Shown here: one piece after another, positions 32,887 to 40,026 of the stretch | Position numbering within the stretch: the stretch's first letter is position 1 | Layout: each line of letters begins with the position of its first letter | NCBI GenBank assembly: GCA_010015805.1 | Contig: ML978121.1 | Location: 1,240,001 to 1,304,000, forward strand | Direction: 5' to 3' | Source: Rhizodiscina lignyota | Taxonomy: Eukaryota | Length of the DNA: 64,000 bases | Translations under genes and position numbers: made by a program | The notes under the pieces: model-generated | Database searches by the model: none | Told to the model about the DNA's origin: nothing | Seen by the model: the letters and a program-made list of their open reading frames with translations, nothing else

Positions 32887-34153
32887 GATGGAGGGGTGGC
32901 TGGTAAAGTTCGAAGATGGGTGTTAATAAAATGATAGTAGATCGGAATACTCGAGCGAGCGCGAGGCAGAAGAAACTGGTGATGATATTCATAGAGACGG
33001 AAGTTCATGGCATATTATATATCTTCAGACCCGGAGTCGATATACGCCTCGTCCCAGCACTTACCATCGTCCCCACACCCAGGAGCTGAGATCCAGACCG
33101 CATGCGCGACACGCTTCGCATTGGCAAATGACAACATGCTGAAATCCAGTCTCTCCTCTCCCGCGTCTAGGATGTGTTGTGGAGGTCGAACACGTACGTT
33201 CTTTGGTTGGAGCGCACGACACAAGCTCAGACGGTGCCGGACCGAGTGGCGGGAGCGAGACGCATCCCAACATGGCGCTTGACTATGCTTTCAGATTTAC
33301 AAGGGGAACTCCCGTGGGCACGAGACATGATGTTCGGAGCGAAGTCCAGCGTCAGTAGTTGGAGTTTTGGATGATGCCGTGTAAACATTTTGCAGAAGAC
33401 GGGCCGACACTTCTCAACTGCTGCTTCTAGCGCACTTCTAGCGTGTTTCTATGCAGATGCCCCGCGCCCTCGACTCCGAGGGAGGTCATTTCCGCAGCTC
33501 CATTCCTCAACCCACCTTAATGTCGGTCCGGCATTGCCATTTCGGAATCCGGCCTTTCTACCGAGAGGCTCTCAGCCGTTAACTGCTGTGCTTCTCGTGG
33601 GATAGTTTTCTTCAGATGCACCGAAAGGACTAAGGAGACATGTGGCGACCAATTCCGACGCATCTGAAGGAATAGAGAGAATGTTGCATAACTCGGCGCC
33701 CCGAACGAATGTAGCAGCCGTCCAGTCTCGTGTATCAGAATTTCAGGCGAAATCAGGCGAAACTTCCTAACAATTGGAAACAATCTACATTCGGAGTATG
33801 GCGGCAAACATTTTCTTCAGTTCCAGAGACACTTGATTCCTGCTCTGCCTCCTGGGATTGAGTGGATTGCGCTACCTTCAAATAAAGTCCTGTAGCTCTT
33901 CCATTACCTTTGGGGACGTGCAAAGTTGCAGCTTCCTGCGAACCATGAAATGATTCCTAAATTTTTGGATAAATATTAAATTAAAAAGGTTGATGATTTG
34001 ATTTTTCTAGTATTTGTAGCCGATTTAAATTTATTTTCAAAATTTAACTAATATATAATAATAGGGATTTCCAGCTCTCTGGTTTTCTCAGGATGCCACA
34101 GTGGGTGAGTTTCTCCATCTCAGCCCAAAATTTACTCGCACTAACCCTCAAAC

Positions 34154-34241
34154 AGACCTGTGGCGCAATGGTAGCGCGTCTGATTCCAGGCATTGGAATG
34201 CTGCTTCCAGAAGGTTATCCGTTCAAATCGGGTCAGGTTCA
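34154..34241 (+). tRNA. tRNA-Trp(CCA) with 16-nt canonical intron (34190-34205); the true 5' end may be G34103-G34104 joined across a spliceosomal-type intron
   Basis: A-box TGGCGCAATGG, D-stem GCGC/GCGC, anticodon CCA at 34186-34188, intron containing TGGAA complementary to the anticodon loop, T-arm ATCCG-TTCAAAT-CGGGT, acceptor 3' strand CAGGTTC-A, and an oligo-T terminator at about 34256-34265. Confidence 0.85.
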
Positions 34242-34255
34242 ATTCCTGATGAAAA

Positions 34256-34265
34256 TTTTTTTTTT
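34256..34265 (+). terminator. Pol III oligo(T) terminator of tRNA-Trp
   Basis: T run about 15 nt downstream of the discriminator base. Confidence 0.65.
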
Positions 34266-34486
34266 CCATCTTTCTTTTTGCCTGCGCAACGAGCACAAAC
34301 CTCATCTCAGTCTACAGGGGACTTTTCGATCGTCCCGTTCAATTTTGCTGGACGGCTGACATCCAAATTTGTGCGCCCGAAGGCCAATATCTACATACGT
34401 GGACGGGAATAACACATATCACTGTCGCTGCCACGGTTCAAAGCGCAGCACTACCGCTTCGTCAAGACGCGAACAGGATTTTTCTA

Positions 34487-34502
34487 ATATATATATATAT
34501 AT
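34487..34502. repeat. (AT)n microsatellite
   Basis: atatatatatatatat read directly. Confidence 0.7.
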
Positions 34503-34666
34503 GGGAAGCTAACGTGAGGTTATCAAACAAATGGGACATGTGTAGCAGTTTTAGTTCGGCCACTACCTGGAACATCGGAGCTCAAACGTTCAACCCCTCT
34601 CGAATTGGCTCATCTTTGACATGCAACCTAGCACAAACATTTAAAAACTGATTGGAATACGCCATA

Positions 34667-37140
34667 TTAGTCGTCGTCGTCACCACGCTCATCAAAGTCA
34701 TCCACTCTGATGCCCTCCCTGAGCGCCTTCTTACTCTCGTCCGCCTGATGGAGTGTTCTCAGGTACTTCTTGAAAGCATTCGACATTCGTACGATTGACT
34801 TAATGTGCGTATCCTTCAGACGTATACGGCCCTCCGAGTCATGGTCATTCTCAACTTCAGCGAGAGCAACAGCAGTTTGGAAAGCTGCATTCTGCGTCAG
34901 CGCATATACGCATGGCCCGATCATTCGCGGCATAACATACCATTTCGAATTTCTCTTCCATTCCAGTGCAACCCCTTCATCTCTCTTGAATCCGTCGCAT
35001 ATTCTTTCGTTGCGATTGGTATTCTCATCGTGTCTTCCCTCTCCTGCTCCAATTTGCGGAAGAACGTATTCCAGACCTCACGTCTATCACTGTCCGTAAA
35101 CTCCGGATAGTGGATACTGACATGTATTCGACTGATAAAAGCCTCGTCAAACGTCCCCACTCGGTTCGTTGTGAGAAAGAGGATTCCGTTATAGTACTCT
35201 AGCGCCTTTGAGGGGGTTAGCTTGACTTTCCCTTCTCTGCTTTTATGTTTGTTAATACTGACCCTTAGGAAGCCGGCAACAAGGTTGTTTCGAGACAGGT
35301 CTTGCGTAATCCGCTGTTCCATATATATGTCAGCTTCATCAATGAGTAGGATGGCACCCCAGTGCTTGGCCAGTTTAAACCAGTAGCGGAGCTTTGTTTC
35401 GACTTCGGTTGGATCCGTTCCGATATCCGTGCAAGTTAAAGAAAGAAGTGGTCGCTGCGTATACTCGGAGATGCATTCCGCTGTGTAAGTCTTTCCAACA
35501 CCCGGTTTGCCGTGCAGCAAGAATATCATCCCTTCTCCCTTTCCCTGAACCGAATCGGCGGACCAAAGATCATGCGACGAGCCACCGTCCGTCGCCGTAT
35601 CTACACGCGTGTACTTGCGTGCGAGACTTTTTATCAGATCTCTTGTCTCCTTCTGGATTACGAGGTCATCAATCATGGAAACCTTGAATTTCGGCTCGGA
35701 AAAGTACCCCACGTCCAGCCTTTGCCACGATCGAATTTTCAAGACGAACCCAATGATGGAACGAGTGCAGAGGAAATATTGGTGCGGTGTCAATTGTTTG
35801 ACATTGACTGGATTGATCCTGGCATATCCGGCGAATGGAGACCTCTTTGTCTTACTGTTGAGAGCCACACATCTCTCGCAAGAACATCCTGGTATTCCGC
35901 CAGCATTTCGCTCTCCTAGGTCAACAACAGGAGGAGGAGCAGGAGGCATCGAAGGAGCTGCGCCAGGAAATGACCCCATAGAATTTGGTGATTGAGTTGT
36001 TTGGTAAGATTCCGTGTCGATCATGACAAGATCCACGTACTTCCTCCTTGGGAAGGAGAGTGTCAGCCCATCGTACCACATGCACTGTCTCTCTGTGAGG
36101 CGGTAATACAACTGGCCCCTTTCTTCTAGCTTCTTGCGGTACGCGTCGTGGTTCATCTTCTCTCCGTGCACATCCTCACGGAGATATTCGCACGGAAAGA
36201 TGTCAAGAGACGAGATCTCCTTCTCACCTTCAAACGGAAGGATTTGCGCATACCGGAGCTGTGGCTGGAGGTATTGTCCGTCATATTCCAGATTCCAAAG
36301 GCACAGGTCGATGCTGTATGCGTTTGCAGTTACACTCTGTACTACATACGGGTCCCAAAGAGCAGCGCTTGTTCGGTCGTAATAGACATCAGTGCCTGGT
36401 TTGAACAGTGTCCAAAGGAGATCAAATGTGCAGACTGGTCGCTCGCGTTGATGCCTCTCGTACTCCTTCGCAAGCGCGTCCTTGTGGTGCGCCTTGACGA
36501 AGTCCAAAACGATACCAACGTGATCATGAACATCCTCAAGTCCTTTACAGTCCTTGACGCTTTCGTGACGGTCTTCGGGGTGGAAAATTCCTCTGTGCTT
36601 CTCCAACTCGTCAAGATGAAACACAATTGGCGCATACGGCTCCGCTAAAGTGACCGAAGAGCCTTCATAGTCACTTCCAGGATAGTAGTCTGTCACCGAG
36701 CGGAGGGCGTTTAGGACTGCTGGCGAGTGGATCTCGATATACGATGACCCTTTCGAATGAGTTGGGGGTGGCTGTGGAGATGTGTATGGCAGATTTGATA
36801 ATGTCTTGATTACCCGCTTTACTTCTAGAACTGGACGGTCTTTCGGAGGCGGTGGCTCGGTGTTGAGATCATCCGTATCACGCGTGTAGACGACTTGCTC
36901 CGTATGAAGGTTGCGATATTCGATTTTGTGCCATACCTTCTTCGGTGGGCCCTCAATAGAATGTTCTTCATCCTCTCCAGAATTCGGAACATGCTCGAAC
37001 TCAATCGACTCCCTCAATGTTTCAGAGGGGCTCGCATAGAAGCCCTTTTTCTCCGCGAGATATTTGTCAGTTCGAAGCGGTACGTCAAGGCCGCCTTCGA
37101 ACGACAGGTCTGAGTATTCGGTCGGCAGTTCTGGAGGCAT
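34667..37140 (-). CDS. Fungal single-ring AAA+ ATPase with long N-terminal extension; exons 37140-35263, 35205-34941, 34884-34667 (start uncertain)
   Basis: Walker A LLHGKPGVGKT, Walker B ILLIDEAD, sensor-1 LTTNR, Arg-finger region FDEAFISRIH and lid WNGREIRNAFQTA. Introns at 35206-35262 and 34885-34940. Confidence 0.9.
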
Positions 37141-37543
37141 TGCTACACCGAGGCGCAGCACAATGCCACTGGTGTTACGCCGTAGAAGCTCCTATCGTCA
37201 CCTGGAACACTTCTGGACGAGAGCTCTCAGGTTCGAAAGTGGCGATCTGTCCGCAACGACATCGCAAGAACTCTCGTGCTGCTTCGCTCATCGATTGTTA
37301 AGATGAGACCACGCCCAGAGCTGAAATTGCGAAGCTCCGAGTTGACTGACATGCGGCGACAGGATTCAGCTCCTTGCATTTGTGGCTGGACGATTTCCAG
37401 TTCATTGGACCGCGGCAACAGGGCCTTTTGCTTTTCCCGAGTGGCTGAGCCAGACCTTCTAAGGACGCTAAAATCTCCTTGGAGTTCGAATGCTGCATGA
37501 TATTATAAGCAGAGATCCAAATTCATTACAATGGAGCGTCGGG

Positions 37544-40026
37544 ATGGCCTGCGATACCGACAAGATCAAGGACATGGTCCGGACTTTCTCCTTCGAACTA
37601 GAAGAAGAGCTGGAGCGCAATGGCCAGCCATCAGACGCGTTGTCGAACGCAGTGGTGCAAGATAGGAAGCGAGAGGATAGGCAGCATGAGGTTCAAGAGT
37701 GGCGCAAATATTTTGAGTCACTGCCGGTGTCAGAGTGAGTGCCTAGCAATCGTATGGCAGCGCCTCATCGCGGTGAGCTAATGGTGACCCTCTTTAGCGA
37801 CGACGAGATCGCGAAGCTTGACCATGAAGGCAACATCCTCTCAGCAGCATGGGCGGAATTCCACGCGTCTCTTCCGACGAAGCAGAGAGTAGAGCTCTCA
37901 CACCGAGCGCAAAACTGGACAGATGTGATCGCGGTCGTGCAAAATGCAGAATCCGAATGGAAGGCGAAGAAACAGGAGGGTGCATTTGGGCGTGCAAAAC
38001 GAACCTTCAATCAGGTGTGCAGCACCATACACAGGCACTCAACTATGCTAGAAGTTTTACCGTCGAGCAGCGAGTATGTGAGTTATCAACGCCTTCCTAT
38101 GAACCTCTAAGGAACTATTCCGGTGTTTTCGCGAAATCCAAAAAGCAGCATAGCGCGCTTGAACCATGATAGAAGTATAGGTTCAGGAAGCACAGGAGTC
38201 ATCTTTACACTCTCCGGAACATTGCTTCGCTGACACGTCACTCGCCCTTTAGGTCTCAATCTTTTGTGGCACACTACAGACCATAATCAAGGTACACAGC
38301 CCCGAGGCGTCCGTTATGAGGCGTGAGGCAGTAGGTAGCCACATGACAAGGCTAATGTGAACTAATAGGCATCAGTCAACTACCAAAAAATAGCAGAAGG
38401 GCTGTCTAAAGCTTTGCTTGAAATTAATGACATCGTCGCCGCCGTCAACAAAGAAACGCTCATCTATCCGACAACCGCAATGCAGCATGTCGTTGCAAAT
38501 TTGTACGCACATATTTTCTTGTTTCTGAAAGAGGTCATGGCTTGGTATACGAAGAGAAGCCACCATCGACTACTCTCCAGTTTCCGCGAAGATTTCTACG
38601 AACACTTTGAGGACCACATTCGGATAATTCGCGAAATCTCCTGGTCCATCAACCGAGAGGCGCAAGCGTCATCTATGGCAGAAGGCCGCTACACAAGGCT
38701 TATGGTTGAAGATCTTGCCCAGATGCTCTCCAGTATCATTGGATCAGAAGGACGGAGAAGAGAGGAGGCACAGGCTCGATTTGAAAGAGCAAAGGCGTCA
38801 CGACAGCTACTCCAAGAAGGCGAGAGGACGGATTATCTGAAGCAAGAGCGCAATTACATCCTTGACCAATTCAAGCAGATCATGTCAGAGGAGCAACTTG
38901 GCGTGGCGGCAACTGGAATGCTCCGACAGCAGGCACAGACATATATCCAGAACGGTAGCGGAGGTGGTGATGCTACTGTCACGGCGAAGACAATTGGAGC
39001 AGGAACGAGAGAATCTTTAGCCAACATTGGTTCTAGCCTCGACAGTCAACGAAGACCATCCGGGCCTCAATCGAGGGAGGAAATTGAATTCATTTCCCGA
39101 GCGCTGGAAGACCTTTTCAGTCGCGCTGATATTAGAATCCGCAAGGAATCGGAAACGGAACCGGTGAGTGATATGATTATACGCTGTGTCTGAAACCTGC
39201 TAATATTCTTCACCTATCCTAGGTTTTCTTTGCGGACAACGAAATTGTCTCTACGCTAAAGGATTGGACTACTGATGCGTCCGGGGCGATTCTCTGCATC
39301 TCTGGCCCAAACGAAGTCGCAAGGCCTTCGTCGACATCGCTACTCGCTTCCCAGTATGCAGCTTATGCTGAACAGGCTGGTGTCCCTGTCATATCGCATT
39401 TCTGCAGCTTACCAAGGAAGTCCTCCCAGTCGTCCATCACACTCGAAATGATTTCGCTGGCCTCCCTGCTGTGCTCTTTGATTCGGCAGTTAGTGGAACT
39501 GTTGCCACTGGAGCTGCCACCTAACAGCCCTCGACTTGACAGCGACCGATTCGCTCGATTGAATGGCACCGTCGAATCCCTTTCAGATGCGATGAGTCTT
39601 CTCCAAGACCTGATCTCGGTTGCACCACCTCTCTTACTCTTCATAATCGACGGAATCCAGTGGCTCGATGACAAGACGACCGAGAAACACATTCGAGCCC
39701 TTGTCTCTTTGCTTCGTAAATGTTCATCTCCCACAGCTGGACAAAGCTCCCTTGTGAATACCGCGCCTCCATCTACCCAAACTATCAAGGTACTTTTCAC
39801 GACATCCGGAAAATCGAGGGCACTCATCCCAATTCTGGAGCGGCACGAGCTCCTACTTGCGGATAGGATCAGCAACGCCCGGACACCAGGGCGTGCATCT
39901 CCAGGCAGGATACCATTGTCTCCCTTCACGCCGCCTCGTCCGGGTGCTGGTCGGAGAACGTCTTCAAGCCCGTTGGCGAGCAAAGGACAACTATCAGGGG
40001 ATGACAATGCAGACTTGAACGAATAG
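37544..40026 (+). CDS. NLR-like protein: helical N-terminal domain plus degenerate NACHT/STAND-like domain, no C-terminal repeats; exons 37544-37734, 37798-38077, 38253-38291, 38369-39163, 39223-40026
   Basis: Five in-phase exons with canonical junctions. LEVLPSSSEYVSIFCGTLQTIIKAS..VANLYAHIFLFLKEVMAWY resembles N-terminal domains of fungal NACHT proteins. The C-terminal ILCISGP, VISHFC, SLIRQL, LLFIIDGIQWLD and IKVLFTT follow NACHT motif order but lack GKS/T. Confidence 0.72.

What the first reader, a model, noticed from the sequence alone, without database searches (positions are those of the whole stretch)
34093..34265. tRNA-Trp gene apparently split in its acceptor stem by a spliceosomal-type intron, whose removal repairs the 1-72 pair
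Seen: read contiguously, the tRNA starts A34154-GACCTG against 3' CAGGTTC, which gives an A1:C72 mismatch. Those first two bases (AG, 34154-34155) are also the 3' splice site of a consensus U2-type intron. It has donor GTGAGT (34105-34110), a pyrimidine tract, branch site ACTAAC (34140-34145) and CAG ten nt later, and at 51 nt it matches the roughly 49-65 nt mRNA introns in this window. The bases just before the donor are GG (34103-34104). Splicing yields GG|ACCTG, restoring a full 7-bp acceptor stem (G1-C72, G2-U71, A3-U70). Established: spliceosomal introns occur in some fungal ncRNAs (U6 snRNA of S. pombe and Rhodotorula, rRNA of some ascomycetes), while nuclear tRNA introns are cut by the tRNA splicing endonuclease. 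Inference: this pre-tRNA may need two splicing machineries, the spliceosome for the intron at 2/3 and the endonuclease for the intron at 37/38. I am not aware of this being described for tRNA.
Basis: partly seen in the sequence, partly recalled or inferred. Interest (0 to 1): 0.92.

Follow-up and report, generated by a model that had tools for sequence, protein, structure and literature searches.

The report
Tryptophan tRNA gene abutting intron-like motif
A fungal tryptophan tRNA gene with a mispaired first base sits directly after a sequence that looks exactly like a short mRNA-type intron, but nothing available shows that this sequence is ever spliced, so an ordinary tRNA gene with a chance neighbour remains the likelier reading.

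Summary
There is a tRNA-Trp(CCA) gene at 34154-34241 (Rfam 44.2 bits) with an A1:C72 mismatch. A 51-nt unit, GTGAGT...ACTAAC...CAG (34105-34155), ends on tRNA bases 1-2 and is preceded by GG. The unit is rare by chance: 2 strict units in the window against 0.07 per shuffle, and about 1e-5 given a fixed YAG.

The interpretation, spliceosomal repair of the acceptor stem, could not be tested. No genome is held, no RNA run is listed, and no fungal relative could be fetched.

New points count against it:
- A second A:C mismatch (A31:C39) would not be repaired by the proposed splice.
- The donor lies 56 nt upstream of the A box, so a normally placed Pol III start would fall inside the 'intron'.
- RNase P should cut the unspliced precursor anyway.
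- A standard AT-rich element, a CAA motif and a T10 terminator fit an ordinary Pol III gene.

My odds:
- Ordinary Pol III tRNA-Trp gene, working or weakened, with a fortuitous neighbour: about 0.75.
- Real Pol II intron that overlaps the gene: about 0.13.
- Spliceosome-repaired tRNA: about 0.07.

The question is cheap to settle at the bench and would be remarkable if the repair reading were true.

The parts
34154..34241 (+). Nuclear-type tRNA-Trp(CCA) gene, 88 nt including its own intron
   Evidence: Rfam RF00005, 44.2 bits against a gathering score of 29, model positions 1-71 of 71. ARAGORN finds it at the same coordinates. The D arm and variable loop match the eukaryotic tRNA-Trp genes fetched.
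34154..34189 (+). tRNA 5' exon (positions 1-37). A1 (34154) faces C72 (34240). A31 (34183) faces C39 (34207). The anticodon CCA is at 34186-34188. An A-box-like TGGCGCAATGG is at 34161-34171.
   Evidence: Read. The non-standard pairs are marked in the Rfam alignment. The A-box consensus is recalled.
34190..34205 (+). Canonical tRNA intron after position 37 (16 nt). Its UGGAA (34194-34198) pairs with UUCCA of the anticodon loop.
   Evidence: Rfam inserts 21 nt in the anticodon loop. The pairing is read. The boundaries are inferred from the canonical 37/38 position and are not shown.
34206..34241 (+). tRNA 3' exon (positions 38-73). A B-box-like GTTCAAATC is at 34221-34229. The acceptor 3' strand CAGGTTC is at 34234-34240. 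The discriminator is A34241.
   Evidence: The B-box consensus is recalled.
34256..34265 (+). Run of 10 T, 15 nt after the discriminator. It looks like a Pol III terminator.
   Evidence: Read. It is also the tail of the terminator-like site.
34105..34155 (+). Intron-like unit of 51 nt. Donor GTGAGT is at 34105-34110, ACTAAC at 34140-34145 and CAG at 34153-34155. Its last two bases are tRNA positions 1-2.
   Evidence: Excision has not been shown.
34103..34104 (+). GG before the donor. It would become tRNA positions 1-2 if the unit were spliced out.
   Evidence: and the in-silico removal.
34127..34134 (+). AAAATTTA, 27 to 20 nt before tRNA base 1, followed by CAAAC at 34149-34153. Both lie inside the 'intron'. 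Together they look like the ordinary upstream make-up of a Pol III tRNA gene.
Evidence: Read. PMC11547032 passages say that TATA-like motifs occur upstream of tRNA genes.
34052..34058 (+). TATATAA in an AT-rich stretch, 47 nt before the donor. It is the only obvious element that could start a transcript upstream of the donor, by Pol II or Pol III.
   Evidence: Read. Its function has not been tested.
34093..34359 (+). ATG-started frame that stays open through the 'intron', the tRNA and beyond. It is part of a 103-codon stop-free frame at 34048-34359. It has no family and no homologue.
   Evidence: ORF list; 0 Pfam families; no relatives.

Best explanation
This is an ordinary nuclear, Pol III-transcribed tRNA-Trp(CCA) gene of a filamentous-fungus-like genome. 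It has the usual endonuclease-type intron after position 37, internal A and B boxes and a T10 terminator.

Its genomic sequence really carries two helix-end A:C mismatches, at 1:72 and 31:39. The simplest account is transitions in a gene copy that either tolerates them or is a weakened or decaying copy. I rate these two options about even.

The consensus intron-like unit that ends on tRNA bases 1-2 is not part of tRNA maturation. Transcription starts a few bases before A34154, inside the 'intron', and RNase P makes an A-started tRNA.

Shown: the gene, its parts, the mismatches, and the presence and rarity of the unit. Inferred: the start site, the lack of splicing and the functional state.
For: - It is a complete tRNA. 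Rfam scores it 44.2 bits over model positions 1-71. U33, CCA, A73, the T loop and the A/B-box-like sequences are read. The anticodon-intron pairing typical of eukaryotic pre-tRNAs is present.
- A T10 run follows the gene by 15 nt.
- An AT-rich element sits at -27 to -20 and CAAAC at -5 to -1. Both lie inside the 'intron', where a normal tRNA gene has its upstream promoter context (consensus recalled).
- The second A:C mismatch, 31:39, shows that mispaired helix ends in this gene do not all have a splice-based remedy.
- The same CCAGA 3' strand opposite UCUGA occurs in an unrelated eukaryote-type tRNA-Trp-like gene, L004.
- The donor is 56 nt upstream of the A box. In recalled knowledge, TFIIIC-directed starts lie roughly 10-20 nt upstream of it. 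PMC4490372 passages give only the general rule that A/B-box binding places TFIIIB upstream of the start.
- No spliceosomal intron in a tRNA gene turned up in three literature searches (listings, plus passages of PMC12530127 and PMC10275265).
- The loose form of the motif is common by chance: 12 observed against 11.83 expected.
Against: - The unit is not loose. It is a perfect GTGAGT / ACTAAC / CAG with 11 nt from branch A to the 3' G, and its 51-nt length is typical for the window.
- Such strict units are expected 0.07 times per shuffled window, and 2 were observed.
- Given a fixed YAG, the chance of a strict unit is about 1e-5 to 3e-5, and lower still with a repairing dinucleotide.
- Under this reading, its exact register, the GG before the donor and the TATATAA 47 nt upstream are unexplained coincidences. 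They are excused only by the very large number of windows and possible 'stories' the first stage looked at.
- The first base pair is reported as an identity element for TrpRS (PMC9976931 passages: discriminator, anticodon and first pair; G1-C72 named for A. pernix). An A1:C72 tRNA-Trp should therefore be a poorer substrate.
- One 92,098-nt de Bruijn contig runs through the gene unbroken. This hints that no second copy shares 31-mers with it, so it might be the only gene of its sequence. That is my inference, and the contig may come from the source sample.
Confidence: 0.75

Rival explanations
1. Split tRNA. A transcript starts upstream of 34103, for example about 30 nt after TATATAA (34052-34058). 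The spliceosome removes 34105-34155. RNase P then cuts before G34103, giving a tRNA-Trp that starts GGACCUG with G1-C72. The tRNA endonuclease removes the 37/38 intron separately.
For: - The splice signals are perfect, the length is typical, and GG stands before the donor.
- The arrangement is rare by chance.
- In-silico removal restores a 7-bp stem.
- No run of 5 or more T lies between 34087 and the tRNA, so Pol III could read through.
- mRNA-type introns do exist in a Pol III gene (S. pombe U6) and in other snRNA genes (titles in the reference list of PMC5855946).
- The first pair matters for TrpRS (PMC9976931 passages).
Against: - There is no expression or comparative evidence of any kind.
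- The donor lies 56 nt upstream of the A box, so the usual TFIIIC-placed start would lack it (recalled geometry).
- In S. pombe U6 the intron lies inside the RNA and even carries the B box (title of Frendewey 1990), so the promoter geometry there is untouched. Here it would be broken.
- RNase P can cut the unspliced precursor at once, which separates the 5' splice site from the body.
- The A31:C39 mismatch stays.
- After splicing, T34102 can pair with A73, giving 8 pairs and blurring the RNase P site.
- The intact A and B boxes would in any case produce the A1 form.
Confidence: 0.07
2. The unit is a real spliceosomal intron of an unannotated Pol II transcript, either a short ORF mRNA starting at ATG 34093 or a non-coding RNA. 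This transcript starts after the TATATAA and runs through the tRNA gene. The overlap with the tRNA's first two bases is positional coincidence, and the bulk of the tRNA still comes from Pol III. A trace of G1 tRNA could be released from the spliced RNA by RNase P and RNase Z.
For: - The signal quality is the same as for the split-tRNA reading.
- TATATAA lies 47 nt before the donor. ATG at 34093 has A at -3. The frame stays open for 75 codons after in-silico splicing and for 103 codons unspliced.
- Two + frames are open for more than 100 codons here.
Against: - The ORF has no Pfam family.
- It has no relative among proteins of 33-105 aa (1 candidate, none scored).
- It has no relative in the 1.84-billion representative library (3 hits at E 2e-4 to 7e-4, none a relative; the one examined, P0004, is an unrelated tandem repeat).
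- There is no downstream + strand gene for which this could be a 5' UTR intron, because the next gene is on the minus strand.
- The exact register with the tRNA and the GG remain a coincidence.
Confidence: 0.13
3. The mismatches are repaired at the RNA level by another route. One option is C-to-U editing of C72 and C39, which would make A-U pairs. The other is 5'-end repair by a 3'-5' polymerase of the Thg1-like kind.
For: Both mismatches are A:C, so one chemistry (C to U) would mend both. Acceptor-stem editing and 5' repair are known for organellar tRNAs (recalled).
Against: I know of no such editing for fungal cytosolic tRNAs (recall; no search was made for it). Nothing in the window bears on it. 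The A:C pairs sit at helix ends, where mismatches are the least harmful.
Confidence: 0.02

Closest known systems
Ordinary eukaryotic intron-containing tRNA-Trp(CCA) genes (Pol III type 2 promoter, endonuclease-type intron at 37/38)
   Same: It shares the cloverleaf, CCA anticodon, A73, the D arm GCGCAAYGGUAGCGC and the AGGUU variable loop with the tRNA-Trp genes fetched. It also has a canonical intron position with anticodon-intron pairing, A/B boxes and a T-run terminator.
   Different: It has A1:C72 instead of G1-C72 and A31:C39 instead of A31-U39. A consensus spliceosomal-type unit ends on bases 1-2.
mRNA-type (spliceosomal) introns in snRNA genes: S. pombe U6 (Pol III), Rhodotorula hasegawae U2, U1, U5
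   Same: A spliceosomal intron would interrupt a small structured non-coding RNA. In the U6 case that RNA is a Pol III transcript. I saw only titles in the reference list of PMC5855946. The rest is recalled.
   Different: Those introns lie inside the mature RNA, downstream of the start and A box, and in Schizosaccharomyces U6 they even hold the B box. They are thought to arise because snRNAs sit in the spliceosome (recalled). Here the unit would lie between the start site and the A box of a tRNA gene, and its excision has not been shown.
Non-canonical, split and permuted tRNA genes processed by the tRNA splicing endonuclease (archaea, Cyanidioschyzon, nucleomorphs)
   Same: These are tRNA genes interrupted at places other than 37/38, including the acceptor stem (abstracts of PMC3978253, PMC4090602 and PMC4033280).
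   Different: They depend on a bulge-helix-bulge fold. The fold of 34088-34255 shows no such motif around 34104/34156 and is no more stable than shuffles (z = -0.40). The signals here are GT..CTAAC..AG instead.
tRNA acceptor-stem repair by editing (organellar C-to-U editing; 5' editing by Thg1-like proteins in protist and chytrid mitochondria)
   Same: A genomically mispaired first acceptor pair would be mended after transcription (recalled).
   Different: Those systems are organellar and use no intron. Nothing here points to them.

Membership tests
tRNA (Rfam RF00005), isotype Trp(CCA), eukaryotic nuclear | Covariance-model score at or above the gathering score over the whole model | tested here: met
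   44.2 bits against 29, model positions 1-71 of 71, E = 3.9e-06.
tRNA (Rfam RF00005), isotype Trp(CCA), eukaryotic nuclear | U33 followed by anticodon CCA in a 7-nt loop once the 37/38 intron is removed | tested here: met
   UU-CCA-G|intron|U is read. ARAGORN's Leu(CAG) alternative needs C at position 33.
tRNA (Rfam RF00005), isotype Trp(CCA), eukaryotic nuclear | Eukaryotic Trp identity set: A73 and a G1-C72 first pair | tested here: not met
   A73 is present (34241), but the genomic first pair is A34154:C34240. The identity elements come from PMC9976931 passages. The gene is still a tRNA-Trp by fold and anticodon. This feature bears on how well it is charged, not on what it is.
tRNA (Rfam RF00005), isotype Trp(CCA), eukaryotic nuclear | Pol III gene signals: A box, B box, downstream T run | tested here: met
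   TGGCGCAATGG at 34161-34171, GTTCAAATC at 34221-34229 and T10 at 34256-34265. The consensus sequences are recalled.
U2-type spliceosomal intron | 5' GTRAGT, branch CTRAY, 3' YAG, at the spacing and length used locally | tested here: met
   GTGAGT, ACTAAC, 11 nt to the G of CAG, 51 nt in all. Local candidates are 47-83 nt.
U2-type spliceosomal intron | Excision seen in RNA (junction reads, lariat) | not testable with these tools
   There was no RNA data to lay on the stretch. The one run laid is DNA-like contigs.
U2-type spliceosomal intron | Lies in a transcript that includes the 5' splice site | not testable with these tools
   No start-site data are available. By sequence, a normal Pol III start would lie downstream of the donor (geometry recalled).
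U2-type spliceosomal intron | Signals conserved at orthologous loci | not testable with these tools
   No fungal relative could be fetched.
mRNA-type intron in a Pol III ncRNA gene (S. pombe U6 type) | Intron lies inside the mature RNA without disturbing the distance from start site to A box | tested here: not met
   The unit lies upstream of the A box, with the donor at 34105 and the A box at 34161. All but 2 nt of 'exon 1' would be leader.
Endonuclease-type non-canonical tRNA intron (BHB) | Bulge-helix-bulge around both cut sites | tested here: not met
   The minimum-energy and centroid folds of 34088-34255 show no such motif at 34104/34156 (z = -0.40). This is a single-sequence fold only.

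The most novel reading that the evidence does not exclude
A nuclear tRNA gene whose first two bases are supplied by spliceosomal splicing. A transcript that starts after the TATATAA at 34052 is spliced from 34104 to 34156, which turns an A1:C72 gene into a G1-C72 tRNA-Trp. Maturation of this tRNA would then need the spliceosome for the 2/3 intron and the tRNA endonuclease for the 37/38 intron. This would be the first spliceosomal intron in any tRNA gene.
Probability: 0.07. Interest if true: 0.92.

Novelty: new member of a known kind. Interest (0 to 1): 0.35.

Why it matters
If the unit were spliced into the tRNA, it would be the first tRNA that depends on the spliceosome. It would also be a second class of Pol III-type RNA with an mRNA-type intron. 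Standard tRNA finders would be shown to misread such genes as mismatched or as pseudogenes.

If it is not spliced, the locus is a useful warning. A perfect consensus intron can stand next to a tRNA gene by accident, and 'repair' stories need RNA evidence.

Either way the question is cheap to settle. One RT-PCR and one tRNA 5'-end read in the source strain would do, together with a tRNA scan of its genome.

Tried and rejected
- Whole genome: none is held. I could not count tRNA-Trp genes or scan other tRNA genes for abutting units.
- Sequencing runs: 1 run was listed, X1, of unknown kind and kept as contigs. No RNA holder was listed.
- Laying X1 at 80% likeness: 1 of 15,746 records was laid. 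It is a 92,098-nt contig identical over 34040-34330 and may be the window's own source. No paralogue was laid, but contigs show presence, not absence. I use the unbroken contig only as a weak hint that no copy shares 31-mers.
- Relatives by DNA pattern:
  - The metagenome scan gave 3 loci, all intron-less tRNA-Trp genes with GACCCTG or GGCCCTG 5' ends. They are not fungal relatives.
  - The prokaryote-genome scan gave 2 loci, eukaryote-type tRNA-Trp genes in MAG contigs.
  - The viral scan gave 0.
- Relatives through spurious ORFs that read across the tRNA:
  - The word-index search gave 1 candidate, and none scored.
  - The full HMMER search gave 3 hits at E 2e-4 to 7e-4. The one I aligned (P0004) is an unrelated tandem repeat. 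The other two were not examined.
- Other RNA families at 33700-34700: only the tRNA and a 13.5-bit chance match to a Tetrahymena snoRNA model.
- Local repeats or a duplication origin of the unit: only 14-20-nt chance-size repeats.
- Earlier findings of the scan: nothing on this genome or this sequence. Nothing of this kind was found by words, which returned archaeal and phage tRNA-Trp cases only.
- Paper search for a 24-nt stretch of the tRNA: 0 papers.
- ARAGORN's tRNA-Leu(CAG) reading was rejected. It needs C33, its stem has two G.U pairs built from the anticodon-intron helix, and the D arm is of Trp type.
- RIP-type mutation as the source of both A:C pairs was considered and dropped. The fetched tRNA-Trp genes have A31-U39, so 31:39 here is more simply a T-to-C change at position 39, which is not the RIP direction. 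No duplicate was seen.
Full report
**What is there**

The window holds one tRNA gene, at 34154-34241 on the + strand. ARAGORN finds 1 gene. Rfam finds 1 match at gathering score in 64 kb, RF00005 at 44.2 bits against 29.

Read against the sequence, it is a tRNA-Trp:
- Acceptor 5' strand AGACCUG, then U8 and G9.
- D arm GCGC-AAUGGUA-GCGC.
- Anticodon stem UCUGA and loop UU-CCA-G.
- A 16-nt insert at the canonical 37/38 place (34190-34205), then U38.
- Anticodon 3' strand CCAGA and variable loop AGGUU.
- T arm AUCCG-UUCAAAU-CGGGU.
- Acceptor 3' strand CAGGUUC and discriminator A.

The insert carries UGGAA, which pairs with UUCCA of the anticodon loop. This is the usual anticodon-intron helix of eukaryotic pre-tRNAs. 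The same helix makes ARAGORN mis-draw the gene as a long-arm tRNA-Leu(CAG) with C at position 33.

The D arm and variable loop match the eukaryotic tRNA-Trp genes I fetched. A run of 10 T follows 15 nt after the gene.

The neighbours are:
- A minus-strand transporter-like ORF (no Pfam hit for the fragment tested).
- A minus-strand AAA ATPase with DUF7025 and a 'fungal AAA+ ATPase lid' domain.
- A DUF7708 protein.

Together with many short GT..AG candidate introns, this points to a filamentous fungus. The only run that holds the stretch has 34.2 Mb of contigs.

A34154 faces C34240, so the first pair is A:C. G2.U71 and A3-U70 follow. Directly upstream lie GG (34103-34104), GTGAGT (34105-34110), a pyrimidine-rich stretch, ACTAAC (34140-34145) and CAG (34153-34155). 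This is a 51-nt unit whose final AG is tRNA bases 1-2. Removing it by coordinates gives GG+ACCUG and a 7-bp stem.

**How unlikely is it by chance?**

A loose intron pattern is uninformative: 12 in the window against 11.83 in shuffles. The strict pattern is rare: 2 observed against 0.07 expected. The other strict unit, at 51579-51531 on the minus strand, is probably a real intron.

With the 3' YAG fixed, a Markov model puts a strict unit upstream in 1.3e-5 to 2.5e-5 of draws. With a repairing dinucleotide it puts it in 0 to 5e-6 of draws, which is 0 and 2 of 400,000. Loose units appear in about 1e-2 and 1e-3 to 2e-3 of draws.

So chance is a poor explanation for a single pre-chosen gene. It is a tolerable one only because the first stage read a very large number of windows and could have told many kinds of 'repair' story.

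**What I found beyond the finding**

1. The Rfam alignment marks a second non-standard pair, A31:C39 (34183/34207). No shift of the tRNA-intron borders removes it. The proposed splice does not touch it. The gene therefore either lives with A:C pairs at helix ends or is accumulating damage. The same CCAGA strand opposite UCUGA occurs in an unrelated eukaryote-type tRNA-Trp-like gene, L004. That gene also has C33 and may itself be defective.

2. The A-box-like sequence starts at 34161, so the donor lies 56 nt upstream of it. From what I recall of Pol III type 2 promoters, TFIIIC bound to the A and B boxes places TFIIIB so that transcription begins roughly 10-20 nt upstream of the A box. The general rule is in PMC4490372 (passages). 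Such a start would fall at about 34140-34152, inside the 'intron' and without the 5' splice site. That stretch has an AT-rich AAAATTTA at -27 to -20 and CAAAC at -5 to -1. This is the ordinary look of a tRNA gene's upstream region. PMC11547032 passages report TATA-like motifs upstream of tRNA genes, strongest in S. pombe and Arabidopsis.

3. The unspliced precursor folds into a full tRNA, so RNase P can cut it at once and remove the 5' splice site and branch site from the body.

4. After in-silico splicing, T34102 can pair with A73, which would blur the RNase P site.

Two points favour an upstream start. A TATATAA stands at 34052-34058, 47 nt before the donor. No run of 5 or more T lies between about 34087 and the tRNA.

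**What could not be done**

- No genome is held.
- One run was listed and no RNA run.
- The run laid is a single identical contig, possibly the source itself.
- Scans of metagenome, prokaryote-genome and viral collections gave 3, 2 and 0 loci, none from a fungal relative.
- Two attempts to reach relatives through spurious ORFs across the tRNA gave nothing.

So paralogues, orthologues, junction reads and the mature 5' end are all unseen.

There is one hint. A 92,098-nt de Bruijn contig runs through the gene unbroken. As I recall how such contigs are built (k = 31), that would not happen if another locus shared a 31-mer with it. This gene is therefore either the only tRNA-Trp gene or a copy diverged from the others. 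I cannot tell which, and the two cases pull in opposite directions.

**Comparison with what is known**

Searches for a spliceosomal intron in a tRNA gene found none:
- 8 papers.
- 49 papers, 15 listed.
- 1 paper.
I read listings and abstracts only. I also read passages of PMC12530127 and PMC10275265, which describe spliceosomal introns as a feature of Pol II transcripts and tRNA introns as endonuclease-cut.

mRNA-type introns are on record for S. pombe U6 and for Rhodotorula U2, U1 and U5 (titles in the reference list of PMC5855946). Those lie inside the RNA, and in Schizosaccharomyces U6 the intron even carries the B box, so promoter geometry is kept. Here it would be broken.

Endonuclease-type introns at odd positions need a bulge-helix-bulge, which the fold does not show.

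The first acceptor pair and A73 are reported identity elements for TrpRS (PMC9976931 passages). A1:C72 should therefore cost charging efficiency. That makes the 'repair' attractive but does not show that it happens.

**Verdict**

My odds:
- About 0.75 for an ordinary Pol III tRNA-Trp gene, working or weakened, with a fortuitous intron-like neighbour.
- About 0.13 for a real intron of an overlapping Pol II transcript. Its ORF has no family and no relatives.
- About 0.07 for the spliceosome-repaired tRNA.
- About 0.02 for another RNA-level repair.

The tests that would settle it are simple: an RT-PCR across 34104|34156, the 5' base of mature tRNA-Trp, a tRNA scan of the full assembly, and the orthologous locus in relatives.

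Noticed in passing
window 34183 / 34207: There is a second A:C mismatch in the same tRNA, at pair 31:39, the loop-proximal end of the anticodon stem.
   Followed up: partly
window 34048-34359 and 34065-34412 (+): Two of the three + frames stay free of stop codons for 103 and 115 codons across the intron-like unit, the tRNA and its trailer. Neither has a Pfam family, and the first has no relatives. The cause is unknown and may be compositional.
   Followed up: partly
window 34154-34241: ARAGORN, with or without its intron option, calls this gene tRNA-Leu(CAG) with a long variable arm. It folds the anticodon-intron helix as the anticodon stem. Short-intron fungal tRNA-Trp genes may be mis-typed this way in automatic annotation.
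   Followed up: yes
L004 (JAAEPJ010000277.1, 1-461) and L005 (JAIXRC010000013.1, 383-1205): Contigs filed under bacterial MAGs carry eukaryote-type tRNA-Trp(CCA) genes, so they are probably eukaryotic contamination of the bins. L004's copy has C33 and the same A31:C39 as the window's gene.
   Followed up: no
P0004 (559 aa): This predicted protein is made of about ten tandem copies of a unit of about 60 residues (TCSLQVARLAGGGRMLHLHRYVF...). It weakly resembles the in-frame translation of the tRNA. It may be a translated tandem repeat of a tRNA-derived element.
   Followed up: no
window 34921-37191 (-) and 38369-39190 (+): A fungal AAA ATPase (DUF7025 + AAA + AAA_lid_13) lies next to a DUF7708 protein. 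This gene neighbourhood is typical of filamentous ascomycetes (recalled).
   Followed up: no
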